From an uncultured Acidimicrobiaceae bacterium (GTDB lineage Bacteria > Actinomycetota > Acidimicrobiia > Acidimicrobiales > Ilumatobacteraceae): DNA of 64,000 bases. A model generated the notes under the pieces. The model saw only the letters and a list, made by a program, of their open reading frames with translations. It ran no database searches and had not been told where the DNA came from. Positions 41,787 through 60,680 of this stretch are shown here, in pieces. A program made the position numbers and the translations under genes. Position 1 is the stretch's first letter. Each line of letters starts with the position of its first letter. The DNA lies in assembly GCA_963732585.1 (NCBI GenBank), contig CAVSZY010000007.1, positions 98,807 through 162,806 of the forward strand. Reading direction: 5' to 3'.

Positions 41787-42989
41787 TCAGTGAGAACTCG
41801 GACGCTCAGGTGTGTAGTCGGCGTTGATGCGGATGTAGCCGTCGGTCAGGTCGCAACCCCACACGGTCGCCGCGGCGGCGCCGGTTCCCAAGCTGACATG
41901 AATCCGCACGGAATCGCTGGCCAAGTAGTCGCTGAGCGCGGCCAGTCCATCGGCATCGACCGACGAGGGGAAGCACTCTTGCGTCGCCGAATCGGATGAT
42001 GACATTGTCGCTCGACGATGTCGGATATCATCGCTGCATTTGCCGATCGCCATCGCCACCCGGCCCCAGTTCGGGTCGGCACCGTGCACCGCGGTCTTGA
42101 CCAGCGGCGAGTTGACGATGGCCTTGGCCACGACCTTCGCTTGGCTTGCGTTGGCGGCACCGTCGACGCACACCTCGATCAGGGTTTCGGCGCCTTCGCC
42201 GTCACGGGCGACCTGATTGGTGAGGCTGACCAACACCGTTTCCAGCGCCACTTCGAATGACGCGACGGCGACGGCACCGGCGGCACCGCTGGCCAGAATG
42301 ATCGCCGTGTCACTCGTCGAGGTGTCGGTGTCGATCGAGACACAGTTCAGCTGCGATCGATCACCCGCCGAAAGATCTCATCGAGCGTCGGACCGTCGAT
42401 GTCGGCATCGGTGAACACCAAGCGAGATCAGCGTGGCCATGTTCGGCTCGATCATCCCGACGCCTTTGGCAACGCCGACGACGGACGCCGCCGATCCGGC
42501 GACGGTTGCCGAGGCGGCCTTGCGGACCGTGTCGGTGGTCATGATCCCCTCCGCCACGGCGTCGGCGTCGGCTTGCGCATCATCGGCGAACGGGTAGCGA
42601 ATCTGTTCGAGCCCACGGCGTACCCGGTCCATCGGGTAGTGGCGACCAATGACGCCTGTGGAGGCAATCAGTACCTCGTCGTCCCCGCAGCCGATTGCTG
42701 CGGCCACCCCGGCGACGACCTCGGCGGCATTGCGCAGGCCCTCATCGCCGGTGGCGACGTTGGCGTTCTTGGAGATCACCACCACGGCCCTGGCCTGATG
42801 GTTTGCGCTGTGCGACCTGCTGACAACCACGCTTGGCCCAGCGAATCGGCTTTGGGTGAACACTGCGGCGCAGGTGGCTGGCCGATCGGCGGCGACGAGC
42901 ACGAAGTCCTTGGTCTGGTCTTTGATCCCGATATTGGTGACCATGGCGTTGAAACCCGCAGGGAGCCGCAGGGTGGTGCTGTCCGACAT
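41787..42989 (-). pseudogene. argJ: bifunctional glutamate N-acetyltransferase/amino-acid acetyltransferase, frameshifted
   Basis: N-terminal half is ORF 42378..42989 (VGVAKGVGMIEPNMATL). The middle is in another frame, C-terminal part is ORF 41787..42251 (VARDGEGAETLIEV...NSPLVKTAVHGADPNWGR...GYIRINADYT). Confidence 0.8.
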
Positions 42990-45726: not shown

Positions 45727-46628
45727 CGGCCCGTCGGCTTCTCGAGCAGGTGGCGAAGCGCACCTTCCAACACCGGGAAGCCAAATTGAAAACCGTCGTC
45801 GCTGAGCCGCGTCGGCAAGACCCGTTGGCCGGTGAACAGCAGCGCCTCGGCCAGTTCGCCGCCGAGCAGCAACTTGGGTCCAAACTTTGGCACCGGAAAG
45901 AAGGCGGGCCGGTGCAGCACCCGTGCCAACGTGGTTGTCATCTCGGCGTTTGTCACCGGGTTCGGCGCTGTCAGGTTGACCGGACCGTGTAGTGAGCTTT
46001 TGAGCAGGTGTTCCAGCGCTGCGACGTGGTCGTCGATGGCGATCCAGCTCTGCCACTGTTTGCCGTTGCCCATCTTGCCGCCGAGCCCGAAGCGAAACAG
46101 TGGCATCAGCTTGGACAACGCGCCACCCTTGGGCGACAAGACGATGCCGGTACGCAGGAATACTGTGCGCACACCAGCGTCGCTGGCGGGCTGAGCGGCG
46201 ACCTCCCATTGGCAACAGAGGTCGGCAAGAAAATCATTGCCGGCGGGCGAGGCCTCGCTCAGCTGCTCGTCACCGTGCGCGCCGTAATAGCCAATCGCCG
46301 ACCCGCTCAGAAATACCTTGGGAGCCTCGTCCATTTCGGCGATTGTGGTGGCCAGCAGCGAAGTGCTCTTTGTGCGACTTTCCACCAGAATCCGTTTGTA
46401 CTCGTCGCTCCAACGCTTGTCACCAATTCCCGCCCCGGCCAAGTGGACGACGGCGTCTGCGCCGCGCAGCGCGGCATGATCGATCGTGCCGGCGTCGGGA
46501 TCCCAACGCGCTTCGCCCGGTCGAGGAGTGCGCCGCACCAGTCGAACAACCTCGTGATGGTCGTGCTGCAGGCGGTGGGCGAGGGCTGTGCCGATCAGGC
46601 CGCTGGAGCCGGTGAGGATGATGCGCAT
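45723..46628 (-). CDS. TIGR01777/YfcH-like epimerase-family SDR
   Basis: 301 aa; MRIILTGSSGLIGTAL, VVHLAGAGIGDKRWS..YK, C-terminal DUF1731-like region. Confidence 0.75.
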   Translation of the reverse strand: MRIILTGSSGLIGTALAHRLQHDHHEVVRLVRRTPRPGEARWDPDAGTIDHAALRGADAVVHLAGAGIGDKRWSDEYKRILVESRTKSTSLLATTIAEMDEAPKVFLSGSAIGYYGAHGDEQLSEASPAGNDFLADLCCQWEVAAQPASDAGVRTVFLRTGIVLSPKGGALSKLMPLFRFGLGGKMGNGKQWQSWIAIDDHVAALEHLLKSSLHGPVNLTAPNPVTNAEMTTTLARVLHRPAFFPVPKFGPKLLLGGELAEALLFTGQRVLPTRLSDDGFQFGFPVLEGALRHLLEKPTGR

Positions 46629-46698
46629 ATGTGAACATTACGTTGCAGTACCCGTGCATGGACTCAGGAAATTTTGTGAATGGCCGATACTAGGTGAG

Positions 46699-48591
46699 AT
46701 GTCTGAGAACTACGGCGACCCTCGAGTACACCAACCAGGCGAGGCAAGTGCACCGCCGCCCCCGCCGCCGCCACCACCGCCACCGCCACCATCGAGTGGG
46801 CCTTGGCAGGCGCCCTCGACGAGTGCGGTGCAACCGGGCGGCCCGTTGTTCGAGACGCTCTCCGGCCCTCCGCCGATGGGCTCAGTCCCGCCGGTCGCCA
46901 CCGCTTCCCCCGTCGCCCTGCAACCGTCGCCGCAGGCTGCCCCACGTCGCGGGCGTATGATCGTCAGCGTCGTCGGGGTTGGAGCTCTGCTGGCCGCTGG
47001 TGCCTTCGCCTTCACCCAAATGCGCTCCAACGACGGTGGTGCGGCCAGCGCCCAAGAACTTGGCCAGCAGCTGGTCAACGCGATGAACAACGAGGACGCG
47101 CTCGGCGCAGTCGACCTGTTGTTGCCCGGCGAGCGTGAGACCTTCCGCCAGCCGATGATCGACTACGTCGCTGAACTCGCCCGCCTCGACCTGCTTGCCG
47201 AAAACGTCAATCTCAATGACTTCAGCGGCATCGATATCCAGATCGATGCGCCGCAAGTGACCGTTACCCCGACGAACGTCACCGACATCTCGAAGGTGCA
47301 CATCCAGGGTGACGCTCGCGTGATCACCAAGTCTGACGAGCTCCCGATTGGGGAGATCTTCATCGACCGCTATGAGATCGACGATGAAATGCCCGAGGAT
47401 GTCGACGCCGTCGAGCCGCTGGACATGACCTTTGCGGCGGTTGAGAAGGACGGTCGCTGGTACGCGAGCCTGATGTACACCGTGGCCGAAGAGGCGCGCG
47501 GCGACGAGGATGTTCCCCAGAACCCTGTGCAGCCGATCGGTGCCGACAGTCCCGAAGCTGCGATGGATGCGATGATCGCGGCGATCAGCGACCTGCGCGT
47601 CGCCGACATGATCGCCCGCCTCAATCCCAATGAGGCCGAAGCGCTGCAGCGTTACGCCCCGCTCTTCCTCGACGAAGCTCAGGCGACGATCAACGACGAG
47701 ACCGCGAACATGGGCTTTGAGATGTCGATTGACGACACCGAATACAAGGTGTTTGGCGACGGCGATCGGCGCCATGTGCAGATCACCAAGGCACATTTCT
47801 CGGCAAGTGGCGACGGCGAATCGGTCGAGCTCACTTTGGAGGGCAACTGCGTCAAGGGCACGATTGCTGGAGAACCGTTTGAGCAGTGCAGCAACGGCGA
47901 TGGAAGCGAAATCGACGGCCTCATCGAGCAGATGGGCTTCGACGACTCCGACGGCGAGATCCAGCAGTTCATCAACGATCTGACGGCCGCCTTCGCCGAC
48001 ATGGAACCGATCGGGATCACCGTTGCCAAGGTCGGCGACGGTTGGTATGTCAGCCCGATCGGCACCTATTCCGATCTCGGTCTCAGCGTGCTACGGGCGC
48101 TGACCCGCGAAGAACTCGACACCCTGCTCGACAGCGGCGAGGCTGCGGTGGCAGCGATCGGCGACGGCATGTTCGGTTCCTTCGATGAGGAATTTAGCGA
48201 CGATGGCTCGCTGGAGAACTACGACACGTGGACCGATTGCGTCTTTGATGCAGCCGATTCCGCCGCCGGGTCGGCGTGCATCGAGGACAAGATCGCCACT
48301 GGCAACGTCGAGGCCGACTTCGTGCCGGCGCCGTATCGCTACCCCGAATGCGGGCTCTACGAGTACTACGACAGCGATGAGTTGTACAGCGATAGCGGCG
48401 CAGAGTTCTATGCCGCCGTCAGCGGGGCTGCACCGTGCATTCAGCAAGCCGCCGAGGCCGATGGCATGGATCTCAGCTTCATGACCGTCGAACTGCTTAA
48501 GCCGGAGTGCTTCCAGACGATTAATCCGTACAACACCTTCGACGCCGTGCAAGCCGACGTCGATGCTGCGTGGGCCTGCGCCTACGAATGA
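46699..48591 (+). CDS. membrane-anchored acidic protein with N-terminal poly-proline run
   Basis: Trimmed to the ATG at 46699. A 13-residue proline run, single TM (MIVSVVGVGALLAAGAFAF), then a large acidic Cys-containing ectodomain; no family recognised. Confidence 0.55.
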   Translation: MSENYGDPRVHQPGEASAPPPPPPPPPPPPPSSGPWQAPSTSAVQPGGPLFETLSGPPPMGSVPPVATASPVALQPSPQAAPRRGRMIVSVVGVGALLAAGAFAFTQMRSNDGGAASAQELGQQLVNAMNNEDALGAVDLLLPGERETFRQPMIDYVAELARLDLLAENVNLNDFSGIDIQIDAPQVTVTPTNVTDISKVHIQGDARVITKSDELPIGEIFIDRYEIDDEMPEDVDAVEPLDMTFAAVEKDGRWYASLMYTVAEEARGDEDVPQNPVQPIGADSPEAAMDAMIAAISDLRVADMIARLNPNEAEALQRYAPLFLDEAQATINDETANMGFEMSIDDTEYKVFGDGDRRHVQITKAHFSASGDGESVELTLEGNCVKGTIAGEPFEQCSNGDGSEIDGLIEQMGFDDSDGEIQQFINDLTAAFADMEPIGITVAKVGDGWYVSPIGTYSDLGLSVLRALTREELDTLLDSGEAAVAAIGDGMFGSFDEEFSDDGSLENYDTWTDCVFDAADSAAGSACIEDKIATGNVEADFVPAPYRYPECGLYEYYDSDELYSDSGAEFYAAVSGAAPCIQQAAEADGMDLSFMTVELLKPECFQTINPYNTFDAVQADVDAAWACAYE

Positions 48592-48612
48592 GCATTTCAG
48601 GGTGCTCGGTGC

Positions 48613-49221
48613 CTAGGCGCCGAGCACCCGCTCAAAGGCGCTGGCCATGACCTCTGGCTCGAGTGCACCAAGGAAGCCGTCGACTTCGCCTGCGGCATTG
48701 ACGAACACCCAGGCAGGCTGTGAAGGCACGCCGAAGTGGGCGAACAGCTCGCCCGTTTGATCGTTGAGGTTCTGGAAGGTGATGGCGTACTTGTCGACGA
48801 ACCCTTGCATCTCGTCTTCGGTGCCGTTCCAGGCCACACCGACCAAGGCGACCTGATCGCCGTACTGCTTGTGGGCCGCCTCGACCGAGGCGGCTTCGCG
48901 GTTACACACCGTTCAAAACGGCGCCCAAAACCAGAAGGCCACCGGTTTGCCAGCGAAGCTGGCGACATCGAGTTCACCGCCGCCGAGTAGCGGTGCTTTG
49001 ACCATCAAAGCCTCGGGGATCGACACCGGGGTGCCGGTCAAGGAACCCGTGCCCGCTGGCGCGGCGCTGATCGAAGGATCGATCGCCGCTGGTGGAGCGG
49101 CGGGGGCCTGCGTGGGCGATGCGGCAGCCGAGTCGGGGGGCGACACCGTCTTGCTAGCTCCGCAGGCGGCGACGAGCGCGGCAATCGCCCCGGCACCGAG
49201 AAACGTTCGACGAGTAGTCAC
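48613..49221 (-). CDS. Tat-signal lipoprotein TlpA/ResA-like redoxin with in-frame TGA at the first redox Cys (candidate selenocysteine)
   Basis: GTG at 49221; TRRTFLGAGAIAALVAAC (twin-Arg plus lipobox). GKPVAFWFWAPF-TGA-TVCNREA aligns with FWA.WC..C..E, and the downstream thioredoxin fold continues in the same frame (track ORFs 48913..49611 and 48613..48909). Confidence 0.6.
48875..48894 (-). promoter_or_regulatory. SECIS-like hairpin downstream of the in-frame UGA
   Basis: mRNA GCCGCCUC-GGUC-GAGGCGGC: perfect 8-bp stem, 4-nt GGUC loop, stem starts 18 nt after the UGA at 48915-48913. Confidence 0.4.
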
Positions 49222-49324
49222 GACCCGGGATACTAACCGTCGCACTGCACCTACGGGGGTGCAGGCGGGCCACCATTCTCGGACGTTGGCGCCCGTGGCG
49301 TCGTCGGCCGTAGCATTGCACAAC

Positions 49325-49765
49325 GTGAAGACAAGAACCTTGCTGATTCTTGCCGTGGCCTGTGGTCTCGTCATCCTCGTTGCCGGCAGCATCAAGCTGT
49401 TCCTGGTCGCCGACGCCGACGCCCCGGTGCACCATGCCGTCGGGCAATCGGCCAAGGTCGCAGACATGGTGGTCACCGTCGAGGCGATGGAGATCGTCGA
49501 TGGCAAGGCTGTTGCCACGGTGTCGCTGGTCGGCGTCGACGACGACGACGGGGCCCAAAGCTGGACTTTTGGTGATGGCCAACAGCTGCTCTCGCGGAAC
49601 TCGCCAGCCAATACGCCCAGTCACAACGGATTGTCGGCGTGCCGAGCGACGAAACGCGACGAGGTGACCCGATGCCTGGTGTCATTTACCTCGACGCGGA
49701 CCCGTGGCGTGTTGCGTTACGACCGTGCGGACGAGGCGCTGTATTGGGACGTCATCGACTCCTGA
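49325..49765 (+). CDS. small membrane-anchored protein of unknown function
   Basis: Track ORF 48869..49765 trimmed to the GTG at 49325 (KTRTLLILAVACGLVILVAGSI). Confidence 0.45.
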   Translation: MKTRTLLILAVACGLVILVAGSIKLFLVADADAPVHHAVGQSAKVADMVVTVEAMEIVDGKAVATVSLVGVDDDDGAQSWTFGDGQQLLSRNSPANTPSHNGLSACRATKRDEVTRCLVSFTSTRTRGVLRYDRADEALYWDVIDS

Positions 49766-49775
49766 GGGCGCTACC

Positions 49776-51227
49776 GTGTGGCCCGTACGTTCCTCGCCGC
49801 GGCGAGCGACTTTGGAGGTGGTTCCTACGGCCGAGCAATTCGATCTTGTGATCATCGGGGGTGGCCCCGGCGGTTATGGAGCGGCGCTTTACGCGGCATC
49901 GGCCGGGTTGAGTGTGGCGCTCGTTGAGAAGGATTCACTCGGCGGTACGTGCCTCAATCGTGGCTGCATCCCGGCGAAGGCGTTCTTAGAGACCGCAGCC
50001 GTGTACCGCCATGTGGCCCATGCCGCCGATTTTGGGATCAACGCCTCGGCCCCGACCGTCGATTTCGCGGTCACCCAGAAGCGCAAGCAGAAAATCGTCG
50101 ACGGCCTGGTCAAAGGAATCGGCGGCATGATCAAGAGCCGCAAGGTCAAGCTGTTTACCGGCACCGGGTCGCTGGCCGCCGATCGCACCGTGAACATCAC
50201 CCTCGCTGACGGCACCACTGCGCAGGCCCAGGGCCGCGCCGTCGTGCTCGCCGCCGGGTCCGTGCCGCGGACCATTCCCGGTTTCGACCGCGGCGGGCCG
50301 ATCATGACCAGCGACGAAGTGTTGATGCTCGATCATGTGCCGGCCCGCGTTGCCGTCATCGGTGGCGGTGCCATCGGATGCGAGTTCGCCTCCACCTTTT
50401 CCGATCTCGGCGCCAAAGTGACGATCTTGGAAGGTCTGCCGAAAATCCTTCCCGGCCTCGATGCCGACGTCGCCAATGTCGTCGTCAAGAGCTTCACCAA
50501 GAAGAAGATCGACATTCGCACCGGCGTCAAGGTCAACGGCCACACGCCAACCGGCAGTGGCAGCACGGTGGTGCAATTTGGCGACGGCGAGCAACTCGAA
50601 GTCGATGCCGTGGTGGTCTCTGTCGGGCGTCGTCCCTTCGCTGACGAGTTGGGCCTCGTCGGCACCGGCGTCGTTGTCGACCAGCGTGGCTTCGTCGAGG
50701 TCGACGAGTTCTGTCGCACCGCAGCGCCCGATGTCTACGCCATTGGCGATTTGATCAACACCCCGCAATTGGCTCACGTCGGCTACGCCGAGGCGATCCT
50801 GGTGGTCAAGCAAGTGCTCGGCGAGAGCCCGATGCCAGTCAACTACGACCGGGTGCCGTGGGCCATCTATTGCCATCCGGAAGTTGCCTGGGCTGGCCCC
50901 GGCGAGGAGGCGGCCAAGGCCGCCGGATTCGATGTCGTCGTCGCCAAGCATCAGTTCCGGGCAAACAGCCGGGCGCACATCATCGGCGAGATCGACGGAC
51001 TGGTGAAGGTCATCGCCAAGAAGAACGCCGACGGTACCGCGGGGCAAGTGCTGGGAGTGCACATGGTCGGCCCGTGGGTCACCGAACAGCTGAGCGGCGG
51101 ATACCTCGCCGTCAACTGGGAGGCAACCGTCGCCGAGGTCGCCGAGTTCATTCAGCCGCACCCAAGTCTCAGCGAGTTGTTCGGCGAGACCGTCCTGTCG
51201 CTCACCGGCCGCAGCTTGAACAGCTGA
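49776..51227 (+). CDS. lpd: dihydrolipoyl dehydrogenase (E3)
   Basis: FDLVIIGGGPGGYGAALYAA, GGTCLNRGCIPAK redox disulfide, HPSLSE C-terminal motif. Start set at the GTG at 49776, 7 nt after a GAGGG; other starts are possible. Confidence 0.9.
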   Translation: MWPVRSSPRRATLEVVPTAEQFDLVIIGGGPGGYGAALYAASAGLSVALVEKDSLGGTCLNRGCIPAKAFLETAAVYRHVAHAADFGINASAPTVDFAVTQKRKQKIVDGLVKGIGGMIKSRKVKLFTGTGSLAADRTVNITLADGTTAQAQGRAVVLAAGSVPRTIPGFDRGGPIMTSDEVLMLDHVPARVAVIGGGAIGCEFASTFSDLGAKVTILEGLPKILPGLDADVANVVVKSFTKKKIDIRTGVKVNGHTPTGSGSTVVQFGDGEQLEVDAVVVSVGRRPFADELGLVGTGVVVDQRGFVEVDEFCRTAAPDVYAIGDLINTPQLAHVGYAEAILVVKQVLGESPMPVNYDRVPWAIYCHPEVAWAGPGEEAAKAAGFDVVVAKHQFRANSRAHIIGEIDGLVKVIAKKNADGTAGQVLGVHMVGPWVTEQLSGGYLAVNWEATVAEVAEFIQPHPSLSELFGETVLSLTGRSLNS

Positions 51228-51295
51228 ACCACCCGGTCACAAGAAACACCGATCACAAGAATTCGCTATTTCGTACGTCGTGCCGAGAGGAACAC

Positions 51296-52714
51296 ATGGC
51301 AGATATCACCCTTCCGCAGCTTGGTGAAACCGTCACCGAGGGAACCATTACCAAATGGTTCAAGAAAGTCGGCGACACGGTCAGCGCCGACGACCCGTTG
51401 TTCGAGGTGTCGACCGACAAGGTCGATACCGAGGTGCCCTCACCGAGCGCCGGCACGTTGATCGAGATCCGTGTCGCCGAGGGCGACACGGTGCCTGTCG
51501 GCACGATCGTCGCCGTCGTCGGTGCCGCCGATGCCGCTGCGGCGCCCGCTGCCCCGGCACCGGCCCCCGAGCCGGTCCCCGCCCCAGCGCCTGCCCCGGT
51601 CGTCGAGCCAGTGGTCGCCGCATCGGCGGCTCCCGCTCCCGCACCCGCGCCAGCCCCGGCACCCGCGCCGACTCCCGCTCCCGTTGCTGCGGAGCCGGGC
51701 GCGGCCAAGGCGAACGACAATCGGTTGTTGTCGCCGGTAGTGCGCCGCCTCGTCGCCGAGCACAATCTGTCGCCGGACGTGATCAAGGGAACGGGTGCAG
51801 GTGGGCGAATCACCCGCGAGGACGTGCTCGATCACATCGATGCCCTGGCCACGGCGGCACCGCCTGCGGCACCGGTGGCGATGCCGGCCCCATCGGCGCC
51901 TGCGGTTGTCGTCCCCGCCGCTCCGGCCGCCGCAGCGCCCGTCGCCGCAGCGCCTATCGCTGTTGCGCCCATCGCTGCTGCGCCTGTCGCCCAGCCAGGC
52001 GCCCGCGACACGGTGGTGGCCTTGTCGAAGATGCGCAAGCTGACCGGTGCACACATGATCGCCAGCAAGGCCGCCAGCCCGCACGCCTTCAGCGTCGTCG
52101 AGATTGACTTCGCCAACGTCGACGCCACCCGCAACAAGGTGAAGAACGAGTGGAAGGCGGCCGAGGGTTTCAGTCTCACCTATCTCGGGTTCATCGCCCG
52201 CGCCGTGGTCGATGCCATCGCCGAGTTCCCGCAGATGAACGCCAGCGTCAGCGGCGACAACCTCGTGGTCCACAATTACGTCGATCTCGGCATCGCCGTC
52301 GACCTCGACTACACCGGCCTGCTGGTGCCGTTGGTGCGCAACGCCGAGGCCAAGCGCCTGCGGGCTATCGCCCGTGAGATCAACGACCTCGCTGGTCGCG
52401 CTCGCAGCCGCAAGCTGAGCCCGGACGAGATCTCCGGTGGCACGTTCACGATCAGCAACAACGGCTCGGCCGGCAGCGTGCTGACGATGCCGATCATCAA
52501 CCAGCCACAGGTCGCCATCCTCTCGACCGACGCCATCGTGCGCAAGCCGGTCGTCGTTCGTGGTGTCGATGGCGGCGAAGCGATCGCCATCCACCCCGTC
52601 GGCAACCTGGCGATGAGCTGGGATCATCGGGCGTTCGATGGCGCCTACGCCGCTGGCTTCTTGGTCAAGATCAAAGACGTGCTGGAAACCCGCGACTGGA
52701 GCGCCGAACTCTAA
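51296..52714 (+). CDS. sucB: 2-oxoacid dehydrogenase E2 dihydrolipoamide acyltransferase
   Basis: Trimmed to the ATG at 51296. Lipoyl domain (FEVSTDKVDTEVPSP), Ala/Pro linkers, PSBD (SPVVRRLVAEHNL), catalytic domain with DHRAFDG. Confidence 0.9.
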   Translation: MADITLPQLGETVTEGTITKWFKKVGDTVSADDPLFEVSTDKVDTEVPSPSAGTLIEIRVAEGDTVPVGTIVAVVGAADAAAAPAAPAPAPEPVPAPAPAPVVEPVVAASAAPAPAPAPAPAPAPTPAPVAAEPGAAKANDNRLLSPVVRRLVAEHNLSPDVIKGTGAGGRITREDVLDHIDALATAAPPAAPVAMPAPSAPAVVVPAAPAAAAPVAAAPIAVAPIAAAPVAQPGARDTVVALSKMRKLTGAHMIASKAASPHAFSVVEIDFANVDATRNKVKNEWKAAEGFSLTYLGFIARAVVDAIAEFPQMNASVSGDNLVVHNYVDLGIAVDLDYTGLLVPLVRNAEAKRLRAIAREINDLAGRARSRKLSPDEISGGTFTISNNGSAGSVLTMPIINQPQVAILSTDAIVRKPVVVRGVDGGEAIAIHPVGNLAMSWDHRAFDGAYAAGFLVKIKDVLETRDWSAEL

Positions 52715-54448
52715 TGGACACCGGGTCCGAGCCGCTGCACCTGCGTTGGCTTGGGCGAGTCGACCTACGCGGAGGCGTTCGACCTCCAGAGCGCCCTGTT
52801 TCGCCATGGCCGTGGCAATCATCTGCTGCTGCTGGAACACCCGCATGTCTTCACCCACGGGGCTCGGGCCGACGTGGCCAACAACGTCCTCGTCGACCCG
52901 GCGAGCGTCGATGCTCGCCTGATTGCCGTCAACCGCGGCGGCGATGTCACCTATCACGGCCCCGGTCAGGTCGTCGGCTACCCGATCGTCAATCTCCCGC
53001 CGAAGCGGGCCTTTGGCGGCCGGGCGGGTGGCGGGCCATCGGACTCCGTTGCTCATGTCCGCAATGTCGAGCAGTTGGTCATCGACGCGTTGGCTGAACT
53101 TGGCTTAGCCAACGCCGGCCGTCTCGATGGCTATCCGGGCGTGTGGATCGAGGCTGATGGGGCGCAGCCACGCAAGATCTGCGCCATCGGTGTGCGCATC
53201 TCGCGGCGGCGAACGATGCACGGCTTTGCGCTGAACGTCGATCCCGACATGCGCTACATGCGCGACTACATCGTCCCCTGTGGCATTGCCGACCGTCCGG
53301 TGACCTCGCTCGCCGAGGAGGGTATCGAGGCGTCGATGGCCGACGTGGTCAACGTCATCTCGACGCTCGCCGCCGCCCGTTGGGGCGGCGGGCAGTTGGA
53401 GCGCCAAGATGTCGCCTGGCGACACACCCCAGCCGACCTCTCGCCGTTCTCCCGCGGTGAAGGCCCGGGAGCCGTAGTGCGCAGTGCCGGCGACCACGGG
53501 ATCGGCGACGAACCGTCGCTGGGGGCACCGCCGCCGAACTCGTCGGTGCGCCTGCTCGGGCGTCTGGCCCAGGCGGGGGTCAGCGGCGGTGTCACCTTGC
53601 ACGAGCGCAAGCCGGAATGGTTGCGGCCGAAGGTCAGCCTTGGGCAACAGGTGCTGGACACCAAACGAATCGTTCGTGAGCATGGCATGGTCACCGTCTG
53701 CGAAGAGGCGGGGTGCCCGAATCTCAGCGAATGCTGGTCGGATGGAACGGCGACGTTCATGGTGCTCGGCGAACGGTGCACCAGAGCCTGCGGTTTTTGC
53801 TTGGTCGATACGCACAAGCCGCTGCCACCCGCGCCAGACGAGCCAGTTCGCTTGGCGGAGGCGATCGAGGCGATGGGCCTCGATTACGCGGTGCTGACAA
53901 TGGTGGCCCGCGACGATCTCAGCGACGGCGGCATGGCCCACGTCGCCGCCTGCGTCCAAGCCGTGCGCCAGCGTCGGTCGGGCACCCGGCTGGAGGCGCT
54001 GATCTCCGACGTCAAGGGCGATCGCGCAGCGCTCGCCGTGCTGTTCGCCGTGCGGCCCGATGTCGTCAACCACAATGTGGAGACGGTGCCTCGGCTGCAG
54101 CGGGCGGTGCGACCCTCGGCCGGTTATGCCCGCAGCCTGTCGTTGCTGGCGCGGGCCAAAGCAGCCGACCTGGTCGTCAAGTCAGGGCTGATCGTCGGCA
54201 TGGGAGAGACCCCCGAGGAAGTCGATGGCGTGCTCTTCGATCTCGCCTCGATCGGCGTCGACATCGTCACCATCGGGCAGTATCTGCGTCCGACCTCGCA
54301 TCATCTTCCGGTGGCCCGCTGGGTGCAGCCCAACGAGTTCGAGCGTTGGAAGTCGCTCGGCGAGTCGCTGGGCATTGGGCATGTCGAGTCGAGCCCGTTG
54401 ACCCGCAGCAGCTATCACGCCAACCAAGCCTCTGCTGCGATTCGGTGA
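52714..54448 (+). CDS. lipB/lipA: octanoyltransferase LipB fused in one frame to lipoyl synthase LipA; LipB N-terminus frameshifted
   Basis: ATG at 52714 overlaps the E2 stop (TAATG) and encodes EPLHLRWLGRVD. The frame slips at about 52764-52765 into track ORF 52751..54448, which holds LipB motifs (NRGGDVTYHGPGQ, KICAIGVR) then LipA motifs (CEEAGCPN, CTRACGFC) with no stop between. Confidence 0.8.
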
Positions 54449-58497: not shown

Positions 58498-59868
58498 ATG
58501 AGCGATCGTCGTCGTGATGTCGCCCTGTTCCGCTATTCGTTGATCCGTGAGGCTGCCGACCCGGCGATCTCGCATGCCGAACGCGGTGTGCTCGTGCGGG
58601 AACTCGCTGGTCGCGAACATCACGGTCCAGGCGGTGAACGTGTCCGTGTTGGGCGTTCGTCAGTGGACCGGTGGATCAGGGCGTGGCAGACCGGAGGGTT
58701 CGACGCCTTGTTCCCCCAGACACGCACCGCAGCACCGTTCACCGCGGTTTCGGTGTTGGAACTCGCCGTGAAGTTGAAGTTGGAAGCACCGAAACGGACC
58801 GCGGCGCAGATCGGCGAGATCATCACCGTGTCCAACGGCTGGTCACCATCGGCGCGCACGATCCAGCGTGAGTTCGCTCGCCGCGGGTTGAACGTCCACC
58901 CCGATGGCACACCGCCGGCGGTGTTCGGCCGGTTCGAAGCCGCTGCTTCGAATGACCGGTGGACCGGTGACGCATTGCATGGCCCGATCATCGGTGCCCG
59001 CAAAGCGTTCCTGTTCGCCTTCTTGGATGACCACTCCCGGGCGTTACCCGGATTCCGGTGGGGTGTTTCGGAGGACACCGTCCGGCTCGAAGCAGCATTG
59101 CGTCATGGGCTCGGCGCCCGCGGGATCCCGAAATCGATCTACGTCGACAACGGCTCTGCGTATGTGTCGGCGCCGTTGCTGCGCACCTGCGCGGTGCTCG
59201 GCATCCGCCTCATTCACTCGAGACCCGGACGTCCCGAAGGCCGAGGGAAGATCGAACGGTTCTTCCGCACCGTCCGAGAACAGTTCCTCGTTGAGATCTC
59301 GGTCAACCCGCCCGCCGATTTCGATGAGTTGAACCGTCTGTTCGTCGCGTGGGTCGAGACCGTCTATCACCACCGCACCCATTCCGAGACCGGCCAGGCA
59401 CCGATCGACCGATACCTGGCTGGTGGTCCGTTCATGATCCCGCACCCGGACCGGTTACGTGAGGCGTTCCTATGGTCCGAGACCCGCACCGTCACCAAGA
59501 CCGCCACCGTCAGCCTGCACGGCAACACCTTCGAAGTCGACGGCGCGCTGGTCGGCCGCAAGGTCGAGGTCGTGTTCGATCCGTTCGATCTCACCCAGAT
59601 CGAGATCCGCTACCAGAACCGCCCGATGGGCCACGGTGTCCCCCAGATCATCGGGCGGCACACCCGCCACCCGATGGTCAAACCCGACCCCGACACCGTG
59701 CGCCCGGCGACGGGAATCAACTACCTCAACCTCGTCGCCGACCGCCACAACAGCGAACTCACCCGTCTCACCCCGACCATCGATTACCGCGCCCTGACCG
59801 TGACGACCGACCCGACCCAACTCGCCGACCAGATGCAGATCCCCGTCGATGGCGGTGAGGCACTGTGA
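58498..59868 (+). CDS. DDE (rve-type) transposase with Mu-transposase-like C-terminal domain
   Basis: 456 aa. N-terminal HTH; WTGDALHG / YVDNGSAY / GRGKIERFF DDE spacing. C-terminal SLHGNTFEVD..KVEVVFDPFDL segment. Confidence 0.85.
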   Translation: MSDRRRDVALFRYSLIREAADPAISHAERGVLVRELAGREHHGPGGERVRVGRSSVDRWIRAWQTGGFDALFPQTRTAAPFTAVSVLELAVKLKLEAPKRTAAQIGEIITVSNGWSPSARTIQREFARRGLNVHPDGTPPAVFGRFEAAASNDRWTGDALHGPIIGARKAFLFAFLDDHSRALPGFRWGVSEDTVRLEAALRHGLGARGIPKSIYVDNGSAYVSAPLLRTCAVLGIRLIHSRPGRPEGRGKIERFFRTVREQFLVEISVNPPADFDELNRLFVAWVETVYHHRTHSETGQAPIDRYLAGGPFMIPHPDRLREAFLWSETRTVTKTATVSLHGNTFEVDGALVGRKVEVVFDPFDLTQIEIRYQNRPMGHGVPQIIGRHTRHPMVKPDPDTVRPATGINYLNLVADRHNSELTRLTPTIDYRALTVTTDPTQLADQMQIPVDGGEAL

Positions 59869-60680
59869 GCATCGAACTCCTGCAAGCCCACTACGGGTTC
59901 GCCCGCATGCCATTCGGCAGAGACCTCGCCCCGCAAATGCTGCACCGCTCCACCGGCCACAACGAAGCCGTCGCCCGGATCGGCTGGTGCATCCAAGAAC
60001 GAGCCCTTGGCGTCATCACCGGTGAGGTCGGTTCCGGGAAAACGGTGGCGACACGTGCCGCCACCAGCGCACTCGACAACAGTCGAGCAACGCTGATCTA
60101 CCTCGGCAACCCCGCCATCGGAGCCCGCGGGATCTACCACGGCATCGTCACCGCCCTCGGTGGTGTCCCCCGATTCCACAAAGCATCACTCATCCCACAA
60201 ACCGTTGACCTGCTCGCCGCCGAAGAGAACGAACGAGGCAAACGCGTCGTCGTCGCGATCGACGAAGCCCACCTCCTCACCCCCGACCAACTCGAAGAGA
60301 TCCGTCTCCTGACCAACAGCGAGCTCGATTCGAAATCCCCGTTCGCGTGTCTGCTCGTCGGCCAACCGACACTACGCCGACGCATCAAGCTCGGCATGTT
60401 CGCCGCGCTCGATCAACGCATCGCGCTGCGCTACGCCATGCCACCCCTCACCCCCACCGAGACCGGCAGCTACATCGCTCACCACCTCAAACTCGCCGGC
60501 CGAGCCGACACCCTATTCTCCGACGACGCCATCGGGCTGATCCACCAAGTCTCCCGAGGACTACCCCGAGCGATCAACAACCTCGCCGTCCAAGCCCTCA
60601 TCGCCGCCTACGCCACCAAGAAAGCCATCGTCGACGAATCCTCAGCACGAGCCGCCATCACCGAAATCACCGCCGACTGA
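59865..60680 (+). CDS. AAA+ ATPase transposition helper (TniB/ExeA-like)
   Basis: 271 aa; GTGA overlap with the transposase. Walker A GEVGSGKT, Walker B VVVAIDEAHLL, LLVGQP. Confidence 0.85.
   Translation: MSIELLQAHYGFARMPFGRDLAPQMLHRSTGHNEAVARIGWCIQERALGVITGEVGSGKTVATRAATSALDNSRATLIYLGNPAIGARGIYHGIVTALGGVPRFHKASLIPQTVDLLAAEENERGKRVVVAIDEAHLLTPDQLEEIRLLTNSELDSKSPFACLLVGQPTLRRRIKLGMFAALDQRIALRYAMPPLTPTETGSYIAHHLKLAGRADTLFSDDAIGLIHQVSRGLPRAINNLAVQALIAAYATKKAIVDESSARAAITEITAD

What the first reader, a model, noticed from the sequence alone, without database searches (positions are those of the whole stretch)
48613..49221. Candidate selenocysteine redoxin: in-frame TGA replaces the first Cys of CxxC, with a hairpin 18 nt downstream
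Two track ORFs (48913..49611 and 48613..48909, minus strand) are in the same frame and are separated only by TGA (48915-48913). Joined, they give a complete TlpA/ResA-like thioredoxin-fold protein. The stop codon sits exactly where the family has its first redox Cys: GKPVAFWFWAPF-[TGA]-TVC-NREA versus the family pattern FWA(S/P)WC..C..E. Eighteen nt after the UGA the mRNA forms a perfect 8-bp stem, GCCGCCUC-GGUC-GAGGCGGC (48894-48875). Its G/U-containing apical loop starts 29 nt from the UGA, within the spacing used by bacterial SECIS models. The protein also has a twin-arginine motif (TRRTFL) and a lipobox (LVAAC), so it would be an exported selenoprotein. It lies divergent from lpd and the E2 gene.
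Basis: partly seen in the sequence, partly recalled or inferred. Interest (0 to 1): 0.7.

Follow-up and report, generated by a model that had tools for sequence, protein, structure and literature searches.

The report
Selenocysteine lipoprotein redoxin, split by annotation

Summary
On the minus strand, 49221..48613 is one reading frame interrupted only by TGA at 48915-48913. That TGA falls on the first Cys of the CxxC motif of a TlpA/ResA/DsbE-type thioredoxin fold. An 8-bp hairpin with loop GGUC lies at 48894-48875.

Taken alone the hairpin is weak evidence: such stems are common in this 64% GC window, and the folding z-score is -1.06. The comparative evidence decides the case.
- TGA sits at this codon in 87 of 89 family loci I could read: the window, 83 from genome records, 3 from metagenome assemblies. 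One has TGC (Cys) and one has TTA.
- The frame downstream of the TGA stays open and conserved.
- The GGUC loop and its closing pairs are invariant, even at synonymous sites (Ser TCG 84/84, Val GTC 84/84).
- One stem pair covaries: C-G 61, U-A 18, none broken.

UGA is otherwise the main terminator in this genome. One family member is Ilumatobacter coccineus, which is published as SelA/SelB/SelD-positive with 15 selenoproteins.

This is a new, mis-annotated member of a known kind, the UxxC thioredoxin-fold selenoproteins. Sec machinery could not be checked in the window's own genome.

The parts
48613..49221 (-). Complete selenoprotein CDS: 202 codons plus TAG stop at 48615-48613. GTG start at 49221; an alternative in-frame GTG lies at 49245.
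   Evidence: Pfam AhpC-TSA/Redoxin spans residues 74-180 across the TGA. Invariant residues lie on both sides of the TGA in a 27-member alignment.
49162..49221 (-). Lipoprotein signal peptide VTTRRTFLGAGAIAALVAAC. Lipobox Cys20 codon at 49164-49162. The Tat-like TRRTFL is window-specific.
   Evidence: a lipobox is found in 79 family N-termini. RRxF[LIVM] occurs in 1 of 79. TIGR01409 scores 16.6 against a cut-off of 16.7.
49018..49161 (-). Ala/Pro/Ser-rich, poorly conserved linker between the lipid anchor and the catalytic domain.
   Evidence: variable length and sequence. In the model of homologue P0016 the equivalent residues 1-60 have pLDDT 52-61.
48616..49014 (-). Thioredoxin-fold (TlpA/ResA/DsbE-type) catalytic domain, residues 70-202.
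   Evidence: Sequence match to PDB 1LU4 (7e-23) and 3IOS (4e-21). The model of Cys-form homologue P0016 superposes on 1LU4 and 3IOS with TM 0.90-0.91, rmsd 1.6 A.
48913..48915 (-). In-frame UGA, proposed Sec103, the attacking residue of the U-T-V-C motif.
   Evidence: TGA at this column in 87 of 89 family loci. It aligns with the first Cys of CxxC in DsbE/DsbF.
48904..48906 (-). Cys106 (TGT), resolving cysteine of UxxC.
   Evidence: Invariant column C106.
48875..48894 (-). SECIS-type hairpin: 5' arm 48894-48887, loop GGUC 48886-48883, 3' arm 48882-48875.
   Evidence: Fold. Covariation: pair 27-36 is CG 61 / UA 18 with none broken. Codons TCG and GTC are invariant in 84/84. The covariance model built without the window hits here at 58.6 bits. 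The loop is identical to the E. coli fdhF SECIS loop.
48712..48720 (-). Q168-P169-A170, aligned with the QPA stretch of DsbE. This is where thioredoxin folds carry the cis-proline opposite the active site.
   Evidence: Q168 nearly invariant, P169 and A170 invariant. Aligned with QPA of 1LU4.
49325..54448 (+). Conserved divergent neighbours (context only): small membrane ORF 49325-49765, lpd about 49839-51227, E2 (sucB-type) 51296-52714, lipB-lipA fusion 52715-54448.
   Evidence: lpd lies beside the redoxin in 56-61 loci and E2 in 47. Pfam for the lipB/lipA fusion. Same order in I. coccineus and in L091.

Best explanation
Window 49221..48613 (-) is a single gene for a lipid-anchored, extracytoplasmic thiol-disulfide oxidoreductase of the TlpA/ResA/DsbE type. 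Its active site is Sec103-Thr-Val-Cys106.

**Decoding (inferred).** When the ribosome reaches the UGA at 48915-48913, the mRNA hairpin 18 nt downstream acts as a bacterial SECIS. Its GGUC loop occupies nt 30-33 counted from the U of UGA. The hairpin would recruit SelB carrying GTP and Sec-tRNA(Sec), so that selenocysteine is inserted instead of RF2 terminating.

**Export and anchoring (inferred).** The full-length protein is exported through its lipoprotein signal peptide, acylated on Cys20, and held at the outer face of the membrane by an Ala/Pro-rich tether.

**Chemistry (inferred).** The selenolate of Sec103 attacks a disulfide or sulfenic acid in a substrate protein. Cys106 resolves the mixed Se-S intermediate, giving an internal selenylsulfide. 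A membrane redox partner then recycles it.

**What is shown here:** the gene structure; family-wide conservation of the UGA; nucleotide-level conservation and covariation of the hairpin; the fold and the active-site register.

**What is not determined here:** actual Se incorporation, SelB binding, export, the direction of the redox reaction (oxidase or reductase), and the substrates.
For: **The UGA sits on the catalytic Cys column.** See the alignment with DsbE WCPFC and with WCxxC homologues.

**The codon is conserved.**
- It is TGA in the window, in 83 loci from genome records (80 GTDB species genomes, the I. coccineus genome and 2 further assemblies) and in 3 metagenome-assembly contigs.
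- The exceptions are one TGC and one TTA.
- The downstream frame stays open and holds invariant residues: C106, N107, S112, V113, E114, W131, P169.

**UGA is not reassigned.**
- The same genes terminate with TGA in 62 of 76 cases.
- 18 of 29 long ORFs in the window end in TGA.

**The hairpin is under RNA-level selection.**
- Loop GGUC and its two closing pairs are invariant in 79 distinct sequences.
- Pair 27-36 is CG 61 / UA 18 with none broken; pair 26-37 is CG 78 / GC 1; pair 24-39 is CG 66 / UA 5 / UG 4.
- None of 500 column shuffles reaches the observed covariation score, and all slid registers score lower.
- Ser+9 is TCG in 84/84 and Val+10 is GTC in 84/84. Other invariant four-fold codons carry 1.15-1.66 bits of codon entropy.
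- The one Cys-form relative has G.A at pair 27-36.
- The loop sequence equals that of the E. coli fdhF SECIS.

**The lineage decodes Sec.**
- I. coccineus (AP012057.1) carries the gene with TGA, the hairpin and the same synteny.
- Ilumatobacter spp. are listed as SelD+/SelA+/SelB+ with 15 and 10 selenoproteins (PMC5029168).
- The window's Lpd is 77-84% identical to those encoded beside the family genes.

**Fold.** Pfam, PDB sequence matches, and the AlphaFold model of the Cys-form homologue against 1LU4/3IOS.
Against: - No selA, selB, selD or tRNA-Sec was found in the 64-kb window or in 1.16 Mb of family flanks. The rest of the window's genome could not be read.
- There is no direct evidence of Se incorporation.
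- The conserved core of the hairpin is short: 4 bp, then a mismatch, then 3 bp. The RNAalifold consensus energy is only -4.7 kcal/mol.
- The hairpin overlaps the conserved peptide EAPSVE, so part of its conservation is protein-level.
- Rfam has no match; by my recollection it holds no bacterial SECIS model.
- No redox partner (CcdA, DsbD or VKOR) is seen next to the gene.
Confidence: 0.9

Rival explanations
1. Pseudogene or error: the TGA is a nonsense mutation or a base-calling or assembly error in an ordinary CxxC redoxin gene.
For: - The window does contain a probable assembly or indel defect elsewhere, the ArgJ frame excursion at 42250-42480.
- TGA is one substitution away from TGC or TGT.
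Against: - The same codon is TGA in 86 other independent assemblies that are only 39-50% identical to the window's protein.
- The downstream half is under purifying selection.
- Synonymous sites in the hairpin are frozen.
Confidence: 0.02
2. Two genuine separate genes: an N-terminal lipoprotein of unknown function ending at TGA, followed by a small 98-aa redoxin fragment starting at GTG 48909. This is how public annotation treats it.
For: Gene callers and NCBI annotate it this way. Examples are P0048, a 96-aa 'TlpA family protein disulfide reductase' of I. coccineus with a 122-aa hypothetical upstream, and 'redoxin domain-containing protein' of 96-99 aa.
Against: - The Pfam domain and the DsbE alignment run continuously across the TGA.
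- The C-terminal piece would lack strand beta-1 and the attacking residue.
- The two pieces are always in the same frame with zero spacing.
- The codon used as 'start' of the second piece is a variable xx position of UxxC, not a conserved start.
Confidence: 0.02
3. UGA is recoded here, but not as selenocysteine. Either it is read through as Trp, Cys or Gly by a suppressor or near-cognate tRNA stimulated by the hairpin, or a SelB-type pathway delivers Cys.
For: - Sequence alone cannot tell which residue is inserted.
- Sec machinery is unverified in this genome.
- One relative has Leu (TTA) at the site with an intact hairpin.
Against: - The position is the catalytic Cys of a redox motif, the classic Sec/Cys pair.
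- The hairpin has the SelB-type GGUC loop of fdhF.
- The lineage has SelA, SelB and SelD and 10-15 selenoproteins.
- UGA is the main terminator in the window.
- Trp or Gly at this site would destroy the active site.
Confidence: 0.05

Closest known systems
Mycobacterium tuberculosis DsbE (MPT53, Rv2878c; PDB 1LU4) and DsbF (Rv1677; PDB 3IOS)
   Same: - Closest solved relatives by sequence: E = 7e-23 and 4e-21, aligned over residues 67-190.
- Closest by fold, tested on the family's Cys-form member: TM 0.90-0.91, rmsd 1.6 A.
- Both are actinobacterial and exported, with the motif at the same place and a QPA stretch aligned to the window's Q168-P169-A170.
   Different: - They use Cys-x-x-Cys; the window uses Sec-x-x-Cys and needs a SECIS.
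- From my own knowledge, not tested here: the mycobacterial proteins are reported to behave as oxidants. Which direction the Sec form works in is unknown.
[quoted passage not shown]
   Same: - Same kind: a TlpA/Prx-like thioredoxin fold, Sec in the first position of UxxC, and a bacterial SECIS directly after the UGA.
- The window's best Pfam hit is PF00578, the model given for the Prx-like family.
   Different: - I could not obtain those families' reference sequences, so identity with any of them is untested.
- This family is defined by FWFWAP[T/G]-U-xxC-N[R/A/H]EAPSVE and a lipobox.
- It has conserved synteny next to lpd-sucB-lipBA, and most of the named genome records are Ilumatobacteraceae or other Acidimicrobiales.
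E. coli fdhF SECIS
   Same: - Stem-loop directly downstream of the Sec UGA inside the coding sequence.
- Identical apical loop GGUC.
   Different: - The loop is at nt 30-33 from the U of UGA here, against 22-25 in fdhF.
- The stem has a different sequence, with a 1x1 internal mismatch in most family members instead of the fdhF bulge.
NCBIfam NF041054 'ResA-like WAxxUGC motif-containing protein'
   Same: A ResA-like selenoprotein with a WAxxU... motif. The match is weak: 24.5 bits.
   Different: - The score is far below the cut-off of 300.
- That model is 354 positions long with motif U-G-C; here the protein is 202 aa with U-x-x-C.
- The window's protein is not a member.
Surface-exposed thioredoxin-family lipoproteins Etrx1/Etrx2 of Streptococcus pneumoniae (PDB 4HQS, 2YP6/4HQZ)
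   Same: Lipid-anchored extracytoplasmic TlpA-like thioredoxin fold. Fold matches have E = 1e-8 to 1e-9.
   Different: - Cys-based and more distant (21-26% identity).
- From my own knowledge: their partners are CcdA and MsrAB2. No such genes were seen beside the window's gene.

Membership tests
Bacterial selenoprotein gene (Sec-UGA plus SECIS) | In-frame UGA aligned with a Cys (usually catalytic) in homologues | tested here: met
   - The UGA column equals the first Cys of WCxxC in P0002-P0007 and in DsbE/DsbF.
- The Cys-form family member L088 has TGC at this codon.
Bacterial selenoprotein gene (Sec-UGA plus SECIS) | UGA conserved among orthologues, with a conserved open frame downstream | tested here: met
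   - TGA in 87 of 89 loci.
- Invariant residues lie after the UGA.
- All 76 genes that could be read to their end continue to a normal stop.
Bacterial selenoprotein gene (Sec-UGA plus SECIS) | Stem-loop just downstream of the UGA with a small apical loop containing G. By my recollection of the bSECISearch model, the loop lies within about 16-37 nt of the UGA. | tested here: met
   - Hairpin at 48894-48875 with loop GGUC.
- The loop is invariant in the family.
- The loop is identical to that of fdhF.
- The bSECISearch program itself was not available.
Bacterial selenoprotein gene (Sec-UGA plus SECIS) | RNA-level selection on the hairpin: covariation and suppressed synonymous change | tested here: met
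   - Pair 27-36 is CG 61 / UA 18 with none broken, and 0 of 500 shuffles reach the covariation score.
- TCG and GTC codons are invariant in 84/84.
- Caveat: only 3 of 8 pairs show double changes, and the sequences are related.
Bacterial selenoprotein gene (Sec-UGA plus SECIS) | selA, selB, selC (tRNA-Sec) and selD in the same genome | not testable with these tools
   - None is in the window (ARAGORN; tblastn with E. coli SelA/B/D) or in family flanks.
- Lineage-level support comes from the literature only (PMC5029168).
Bacterial selenoprotein gene (Sec-UGA plus SECIS) | Selenium actually incorporated at the UGA | not testable with these tools
   Needs 75Se labelling or mass spectrometry.
TlpA/ResA/DsbE-like thioredoxin-fold oxidoreductases (Pfam AhpC-TSA/Redoxin; cd02966) | Domain match above the curated threshold | tested here: met
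   PF00578 scores 53.8 bits (cut-off 26) and PF08534 scores 39.2 bits (cut-off 26.6), over residues 74-180.
TlpA/ResA/DsbE-like thioredoxin-fold oxidoreductases (Pfam AhpC-TSA/Redoxin; cd02966) | CxxC-type motif at the N-terminus of helix alpha-1, plus the proline loop opposite it (cis in solved thioredoxin folds) | tested here: met
   - U103-T-V-C106 is in register with WCPFC of 1LU4.
- Q168-P169-A170 aligns with QPA of 1LU4.
- In the model of homologue P0016 the motif (residues 100-103) opens helix 101-117.
- Neither the cis state nor the position of the proline relative to the active site was examined.
TlpA/ResA/DsbE-like thioredoxin-fold oxidoreductases (Pfam AhpC-TSA/Redoxin; cd02966) | Three-dimensional fold | tested here: met
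- Catalytic-domain residues (from about 61) have pLDDT 85-98.
- Best PDB matches are 1LU4 and 3IOS (TM 0.90-0.91), then ResA.
TlpA/ResA/DsbE-like thioredoxin-fold oxidoreductases (Pfam AhpC-TSA/Redoxin; cd02966) | Extracytoplasmic location | tested here: inconclusive
   - A basic n-region, hydrophobic core and lipobox L-[AVS]-[AGS]-C are present in the window and in 79 family N-termini, by pattern only.
- No dedicated signal-peptide predictor was available.
NCBIfam NF041054 ResA-like WAxxUGC selenoprotein | Score at or above the curated cut-off, and a U-G-C motif | tested here: not met
   24.5 bits against a cut-off of 300. The motif here is U-T-V-C.
Peroxiredoxin (Prx/AhpC proper) | Peroxidatic Cys or Sec in a PxxxT/SxxC(U) motif | tested here: not met
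   The active site is WAPF-U-TVC with no T/S-x-x-C(U) context. The nearest structures are DsbE, DsbF and ResA, not Prx.
Twin-arginine (Tat) signal peptide | S/T-R-R-x-F-L-K consensus; TIGR01409 at or above its cut-off | tested here: inconclusive
   - The window has T-R-R-T-F-L.
- TIGR01409 scores 16.6 against 16.7.
- Only 1 of 79 family members, the window itself, has RRxF[LIVM], so this is not a family property.

The most novel reading that the evidence does not exclude
This could be a not-yet-described orthologous family: the Sec-containing counterpart of mycobacterial DsbE/DsbF.

- It is a lipid-anchored, extracytoplasmic selenoprotein fixed as Sec (87 of 89 loci) in genome records that are mostly Ilumatobacteraceae or other Acidimicrobiales.
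- It has its own highly stereotyped SECIS, ...GAAGCC-C-CCUC-GGUC-GAGG-A-GGC, with an fdhF-type loop.
- It keeps a conserved divergent position next to lpd-sucB-lipBA, which might reflect co-regulation of envelope redox defence with the lipoamide system.
- It is systematically split in public annotation, including in the cultured I. coccineus.

The evidence does not exclude that earlier selenoproteome surveys already counted it under 'thiol-disulfide isomerase-like' or 'Prx-like' proteins.
Probability: 0.4. Interest if true: 0.45.

Novelty: new member of a known kind. Interest (0 to 1): 0.35.

Why it matters
- **Annotation fix.** The gene is cut into a 'hypothetical protein' and a 96-99-aa 'redoxin/TlpA' fragment in public records, including the complete genome of the cultured Ilumatobacter coccineus. 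One family-specific model with the U position and its SECIS would repair all of them.
- **Biology.** It shows that a group of actinobacteria found in freshwater, marine and soil metagenomes keeps a selenoprotein at the cell surface, where the low pKa of a selenol and its resistance to over-oxidation would help. This adds a selenium dependence to their envelope redox biology.
- **Experimental handle.** The 79 distinct sequences form a clean natural dataset for what an actinobacterial SelB recognises: an invariant GGUC loop, two invariant closing pairs and tolerated stem variants. I. coccineus is culturable, so the prediction can be tested directly.
- **Limit.** It does not change concepts. UxxC thioredoxin-fold selenoproteins and Sec use in Ilumatobacter are already published.

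Tried and rejected
1. **Sec machinery in the window.** ARAGORN found no tRNA at all. tblastn with E. coli SelA/SelB/SelD found nothing below E = 0.27. The same searches on 1.16 Mb of family flanks found nothing.
2. **Extending beyond the window** by exact-protein look-ups. The GalE-like gene was not on record. The transposon ATPase led only to short multi-copy contigs.
3. **Rfam.** No hit at gathering thresholds. Only chance-level hits came from a permissive scan of the site.
4. **A longer SECIS lower stem enclosing the UGA.** RNAalifold on four wider windows kept only the 4-bp upper stem.
5. **Other selenoprotein genes in the window.** An in-frame TGA scan using GC3 coding signal gave only gene ends and the ArgJ frame defect. 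A scan for TGA followed by a GGUC hairpin gave only off-frame or antisense artefacts outside the family.
6. **Operon partners (CcdA, ResB/C, DsbD).** None is conserved next to the gene.
A Cys-form homologue was modelled instead.
8. **Peroxiredoxin reading of the top Pfam hit.** Rejected on motif and on the nearest structures.
9. **Membership of the NF041054 WAxxUGC family.** Rejected on score and motif.
10. **Whether the family equals the published 'thiol-disulfide isomerase-like' selenoprotein.** Their reference sequences were not retrievable, and the GOS paper text had no relevant passage.
Full report
**1. Observation**

Reading the minus strand of 48500-49800 and listing ORFs confirms two same-frame ORFs, 48913..49611 and 48613..48909. 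They are separated only by TGA at 48915-48913.

Translating 49221..48613 gives 202 codons with one internal stop: VTTRRTFLGAGAIAALVAAC...GKPVAFWFWAPF*TVCNREAASVEAAH.... With Cys placed at the stop, Pfam AhpC-TSA (53.8 bits, cut-off 26) and Redoxin match residues 74-180, across the stop. NCBIfam gives ResA-type matches, all below their cut-offs.

The hairpin GCCGCCUC-GGUC-GAGGCGGC lies at 48894-48875 and forms in both the MFE and centroid structures.

On its own the hairpin is not remarkable:
- The fold z-score is -1.06.
- The 64% GC window holds 32 perfect 8-bp hairpins, against about 14 in Markov-1 simulations.
- 25 TGA trinucleotides are followed by such a hairpin.

**2. Relatives**

A protein search with the joined sequence gave two kinds of hit. 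Full-length homologues carry WCxxC. Three proteins end exactly at FWFWAPT, and one has 'W' at the stop column. Their DNA (L001-L004) has TGA at that codon, and the frame continues as U-x-x-C-NREAPSVE.

A scan of one genome per GTDB species with the family alignment found at least 365 relatives, of which the best 80 were kept. Most of the named records are Ilumatobacteraceae or other Acidimicrobiales MAGs. Every one of the 80 carries TGA at the column.

A profile search showed how the family appears in databases: mostly as 96-99-aa C-terminal fragments named 'redoxin domain-containing protein' or 'TlpA family protein disulfide reductase'. One of these, P0048, comes from the complete genome of Ilumatobacter coccineus. 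Its locus (L087, AP012057.1) has the TGA, the hairpin and a separately called 122-aa N-terminal 'gene'.

The overall tally for the loci I could read is TGA in 87 of 89. That is the window, 83 loci from genome records and 3 metagenome-assembly contigs. L091, a 4.69-Mb contig with the same gene order, is counted among the genome records: its 99-aa fragment begins at the second x of UxxC and a 100-aa ORF ends directly before it, but I did not read its codon itself. The two exceptions are a Cys form (L088: TGC, WCGIC) and a short contig with TTA (L089).

**3. UGA is not reassigned**

The family genes themselves end in TGA in 62 of the 76 cases that could be read to their stop. In the window, 18 of 29 long ORFs with a coding GC3 signal end in TGA. 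The internal TGA therefore needs a local recoding signal.

**4. The hairpin as a SECIS**

In 84 sequences (79 distinct) aligned without gaps from the TGA:
- The loop GGUC (nt 30-33) and the closing pairs U-A and C-G are invariant.
- Pair 27-36 is C-G in 61 and U-A in 18, never broken.
- Pair 26-37 is C-G in 78 and G-C in 1.
- Pair 24-39 is C-G 66, U-A 5, U-G 4.
- Pair 25-38 is mismatched in 70 of 79.

The window's perfect 8-bp stem is therefore atypical. The family form is a 4-bp upper stem, a 1x1 mismatch, then 3 lower pairs.

Controls support a real structure. No column shuffle (0 of 500) reaches the observed covariation score or the percentage of paired cells, and all slid registers score lower.

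Codon analysis separates RNA constraint from protein constraint. Ser+9 is TCG in 84/84 and Val+10 is GTC in 84/84. Other invariant four-fold codons vary freely:

| Codon | Entropy (bits) |
|---|---|
| Ala-3 | 1.51 |
| Pro-2 | 1.15 |
| Gly+25 | 1.26 |
| Val+26 | 1.48 |
| Ala+27 | 1.66 |
| Gly+30 | 1.43 |

The single Cys form has G.A at pair 27-36. That fits relaxed constraint, but it is one case only.

The E. coli fdhF SECIS, read from MG1655, has the same GGUC loop at nt 22-25.

A covariance model built from 84 relatives without the window scores the window's element at 58.6 bits (E = 1e-17). It finds nothing else in the window apart from the palindromic opposite strand of the same hairpin. 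That score partly reflects homologous coding sequence, so it tests membership, not RNA function.

RNAalifold keeps only the 4-bp core, at -4.7 kcal/mol. Wider windows add nothing.

**5. Sec machinery**

None is in the window or in 1.16 Mb of family flanks. Attempts to read beyond the window failed.

At lineage level the evidence is from the literature:
- Peng et al. 2016 (PMC5029168, Tables S1 and S2) list I. coccineus and I. nonamiensis as SelD+, SelA+, SelB+, with 15 and 10 selenoproteins.
- A 2026 preprint reports universal selA, selC and selD, and a divergent selB, in Actinomarina, another member of the Acidimicrobiia.

The window belongs to this lineage:
- Its Lpd is 84% identical to those of L009, L023 and L007, and 77-79% identical to those of I. 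coccineus and L091.
- The gene order matches. Upstream and divergent are the small ORF, lpd, E2 and a lipB-lipA fusion. Downstream are epimerase/DUF1731 and, further on, ArgJ.

**6. What the protein is**

The nearest solved relatives are M. tuberculosis DsbE/MPT53 (1LU4, 7e-23) and DsbF (3IOS, 4e-21). An AlphaFold model of the Cys-form family member P0016 has pLDDT 85-98 over its catalytic domain. It superposes on 1LU4 and 3IOS with TM 0.90-0.91 and rmsd 1.6 A, followed by ResA, StoA and the pneumococcal lipoproteins Etrx1/2.

The motif opens helix alpha-1, and the invariant P169 lies in the stretch aligned with QPA of DsbE.

All 79 family N-termini for which a start codon could be placed show a basic n-region, a hydrophobic core and a lipobox Cys, followed by an Ala/Pro-rich linker of variable length. 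The strict Tat motif is found in the window only, and TIGR01409 is marginal.

The most likely mechanism is that of an extracytoplasmic thiol-disulfide exchanger with a selenolate as the attacking group and Cys106 as the resolving residue. Direction, substrates and electron partner remain unknown. No CcdA, DsbD or ResBC gene is linked.

**7. Comparison with what is known, and novelty**

UxxC thioredoxin-fold selenoproteins are an established predicted class. [quoted passage not shown] Extracellular and lipoprotein selenoproteins have also been described.

The window's protein is not a member of NCBIfam NF041054 (WAxxUGC): 24.5 bits against a cut-off of 300. No NCBIfam model reaches its cut-off, which explains why annotation still truncates the gene.

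I could not test whether earlier surveys already counted this family. I therefore rate it as a new, mis-annotated member of a known kind. It is solidly supported but not surprising to a specialist.

**8. Verdict**

The confidence breaks down as follows:

| Claim | Confidence |
|---|---|
| Genuine Sec-encoding gene | about 0.9 |
| Non-Sec recoding | about 0.05 |
| Pseudogene or error | about 0.02 |
| Two separate genes | about 0.02 |

The remaining doubt rests on the unverified Sec machinery of this particular genome and the lack of any protein-level data.

Noticed in passing
window 42250-42480 (-): The ArgJ gene leaves its reading frame and returns about 70 nt later...GMIEPNMATLISL | VFTDADIDGPTLDEIFRRVIDRS | LNCVSIDTDTSTSD. 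This looks like one extra T and one missing T. It creates an apparent in-frame TGA at 42380-42378 that is not a Sec candidate. It is either an assembly indel pair or a disrupted gene.
   Followed up: partly
window 46588-48591 (+): A 667-aa ORF with a run of 13 prolines, a predicted membrane segment and a Cys-rich acidic C-terminal part has no Pfam match. It sits convergent to the redoxin, between it and the epimerase/DUF1731 gene. No such gene is present at that position in I. coccineus (L087) or L091.
   Followed up: partly
window 58498-60680 (+): A Mu-type transposase (rve, Mu-transpos_C) is followed by an AAA_22 ATPase. The identical ATPase is encoded on several other contigs, including sample ERZ25039524, which also yielded the 4.69-Mb contig L091. 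This is probably an active multi-copy element.
   Followed up: partly
L087 9629-10291 (Ilumatobacter coccineus AP012057.1, about 3,305,118-3,305,780): In the complete genome of a cultured species the selenoprotein gene is called as two genes: a 122-aa hypothetical and a 96-aa 'TlpA family protein disulfide reductase'. NCBI, JGI and ENA records hold dozens of such 96-99-aa fragments.
   Followed up: yes
L089 410-412; L088 606-608: One family member has TTA (Leu) instead of TGA with a fully intact hairpin. It is a 760-nt contig, so this may be an error or an inactive allele. One member is a true Cys form (TGC, WCGIC) whose hairpin has a G.A mismatch at the covarying pair.
   Followed up: partly
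L001 561-563 and the C-terminal TGA of the same gene; P0001, P0014: JGI products show Trp at the Sec codon. For P0001 the DNA shows translation running through the true TGA stop as well. The gene caller evidently applied a UGA=Trp table to that contig, which hides the selenoprotein in a different way. DNA for P0014 could not be read.
   Followed up: partly
A3 columns 1-21 (window 48915-48895) and the codon before the UGA: There is a family-wide codon bias between the UGA and the hairpin that protein constraint does not explain: Thr-1 ACT 67/69, Arg+5 CGT 49/60, Glu+6 GAA 79/83. These appear unusual choices for such GC3-rich genes, though I did not measure overall codon usage. The window itself differs (TTT before the UGA, CGC at +5). 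No consensus pairing was found for this stretch.
   Followed up: partly
window 52715-54448 (+): A single ORF fuses a lipoyl(octanoyl) transferase LipB-type domain to a radical-SAM lipoyl synthase (LipA) directly after lpd and E2. The same fusion is present in I. coccineus and L091.
   Followed up: no
L035, L046, L033 (record titles): Some genome records that carry this family with Ilumatobacter-type synteny are labelled 'Candidatus Azotimanducaceae', 'uncultured Bifidobacterium sp.' or 'Ferrithrix thermotolerans DSM 19514 isolate ...'. These are probably mis-binned or mis-labelled MAG contigs.
   Followed up: no
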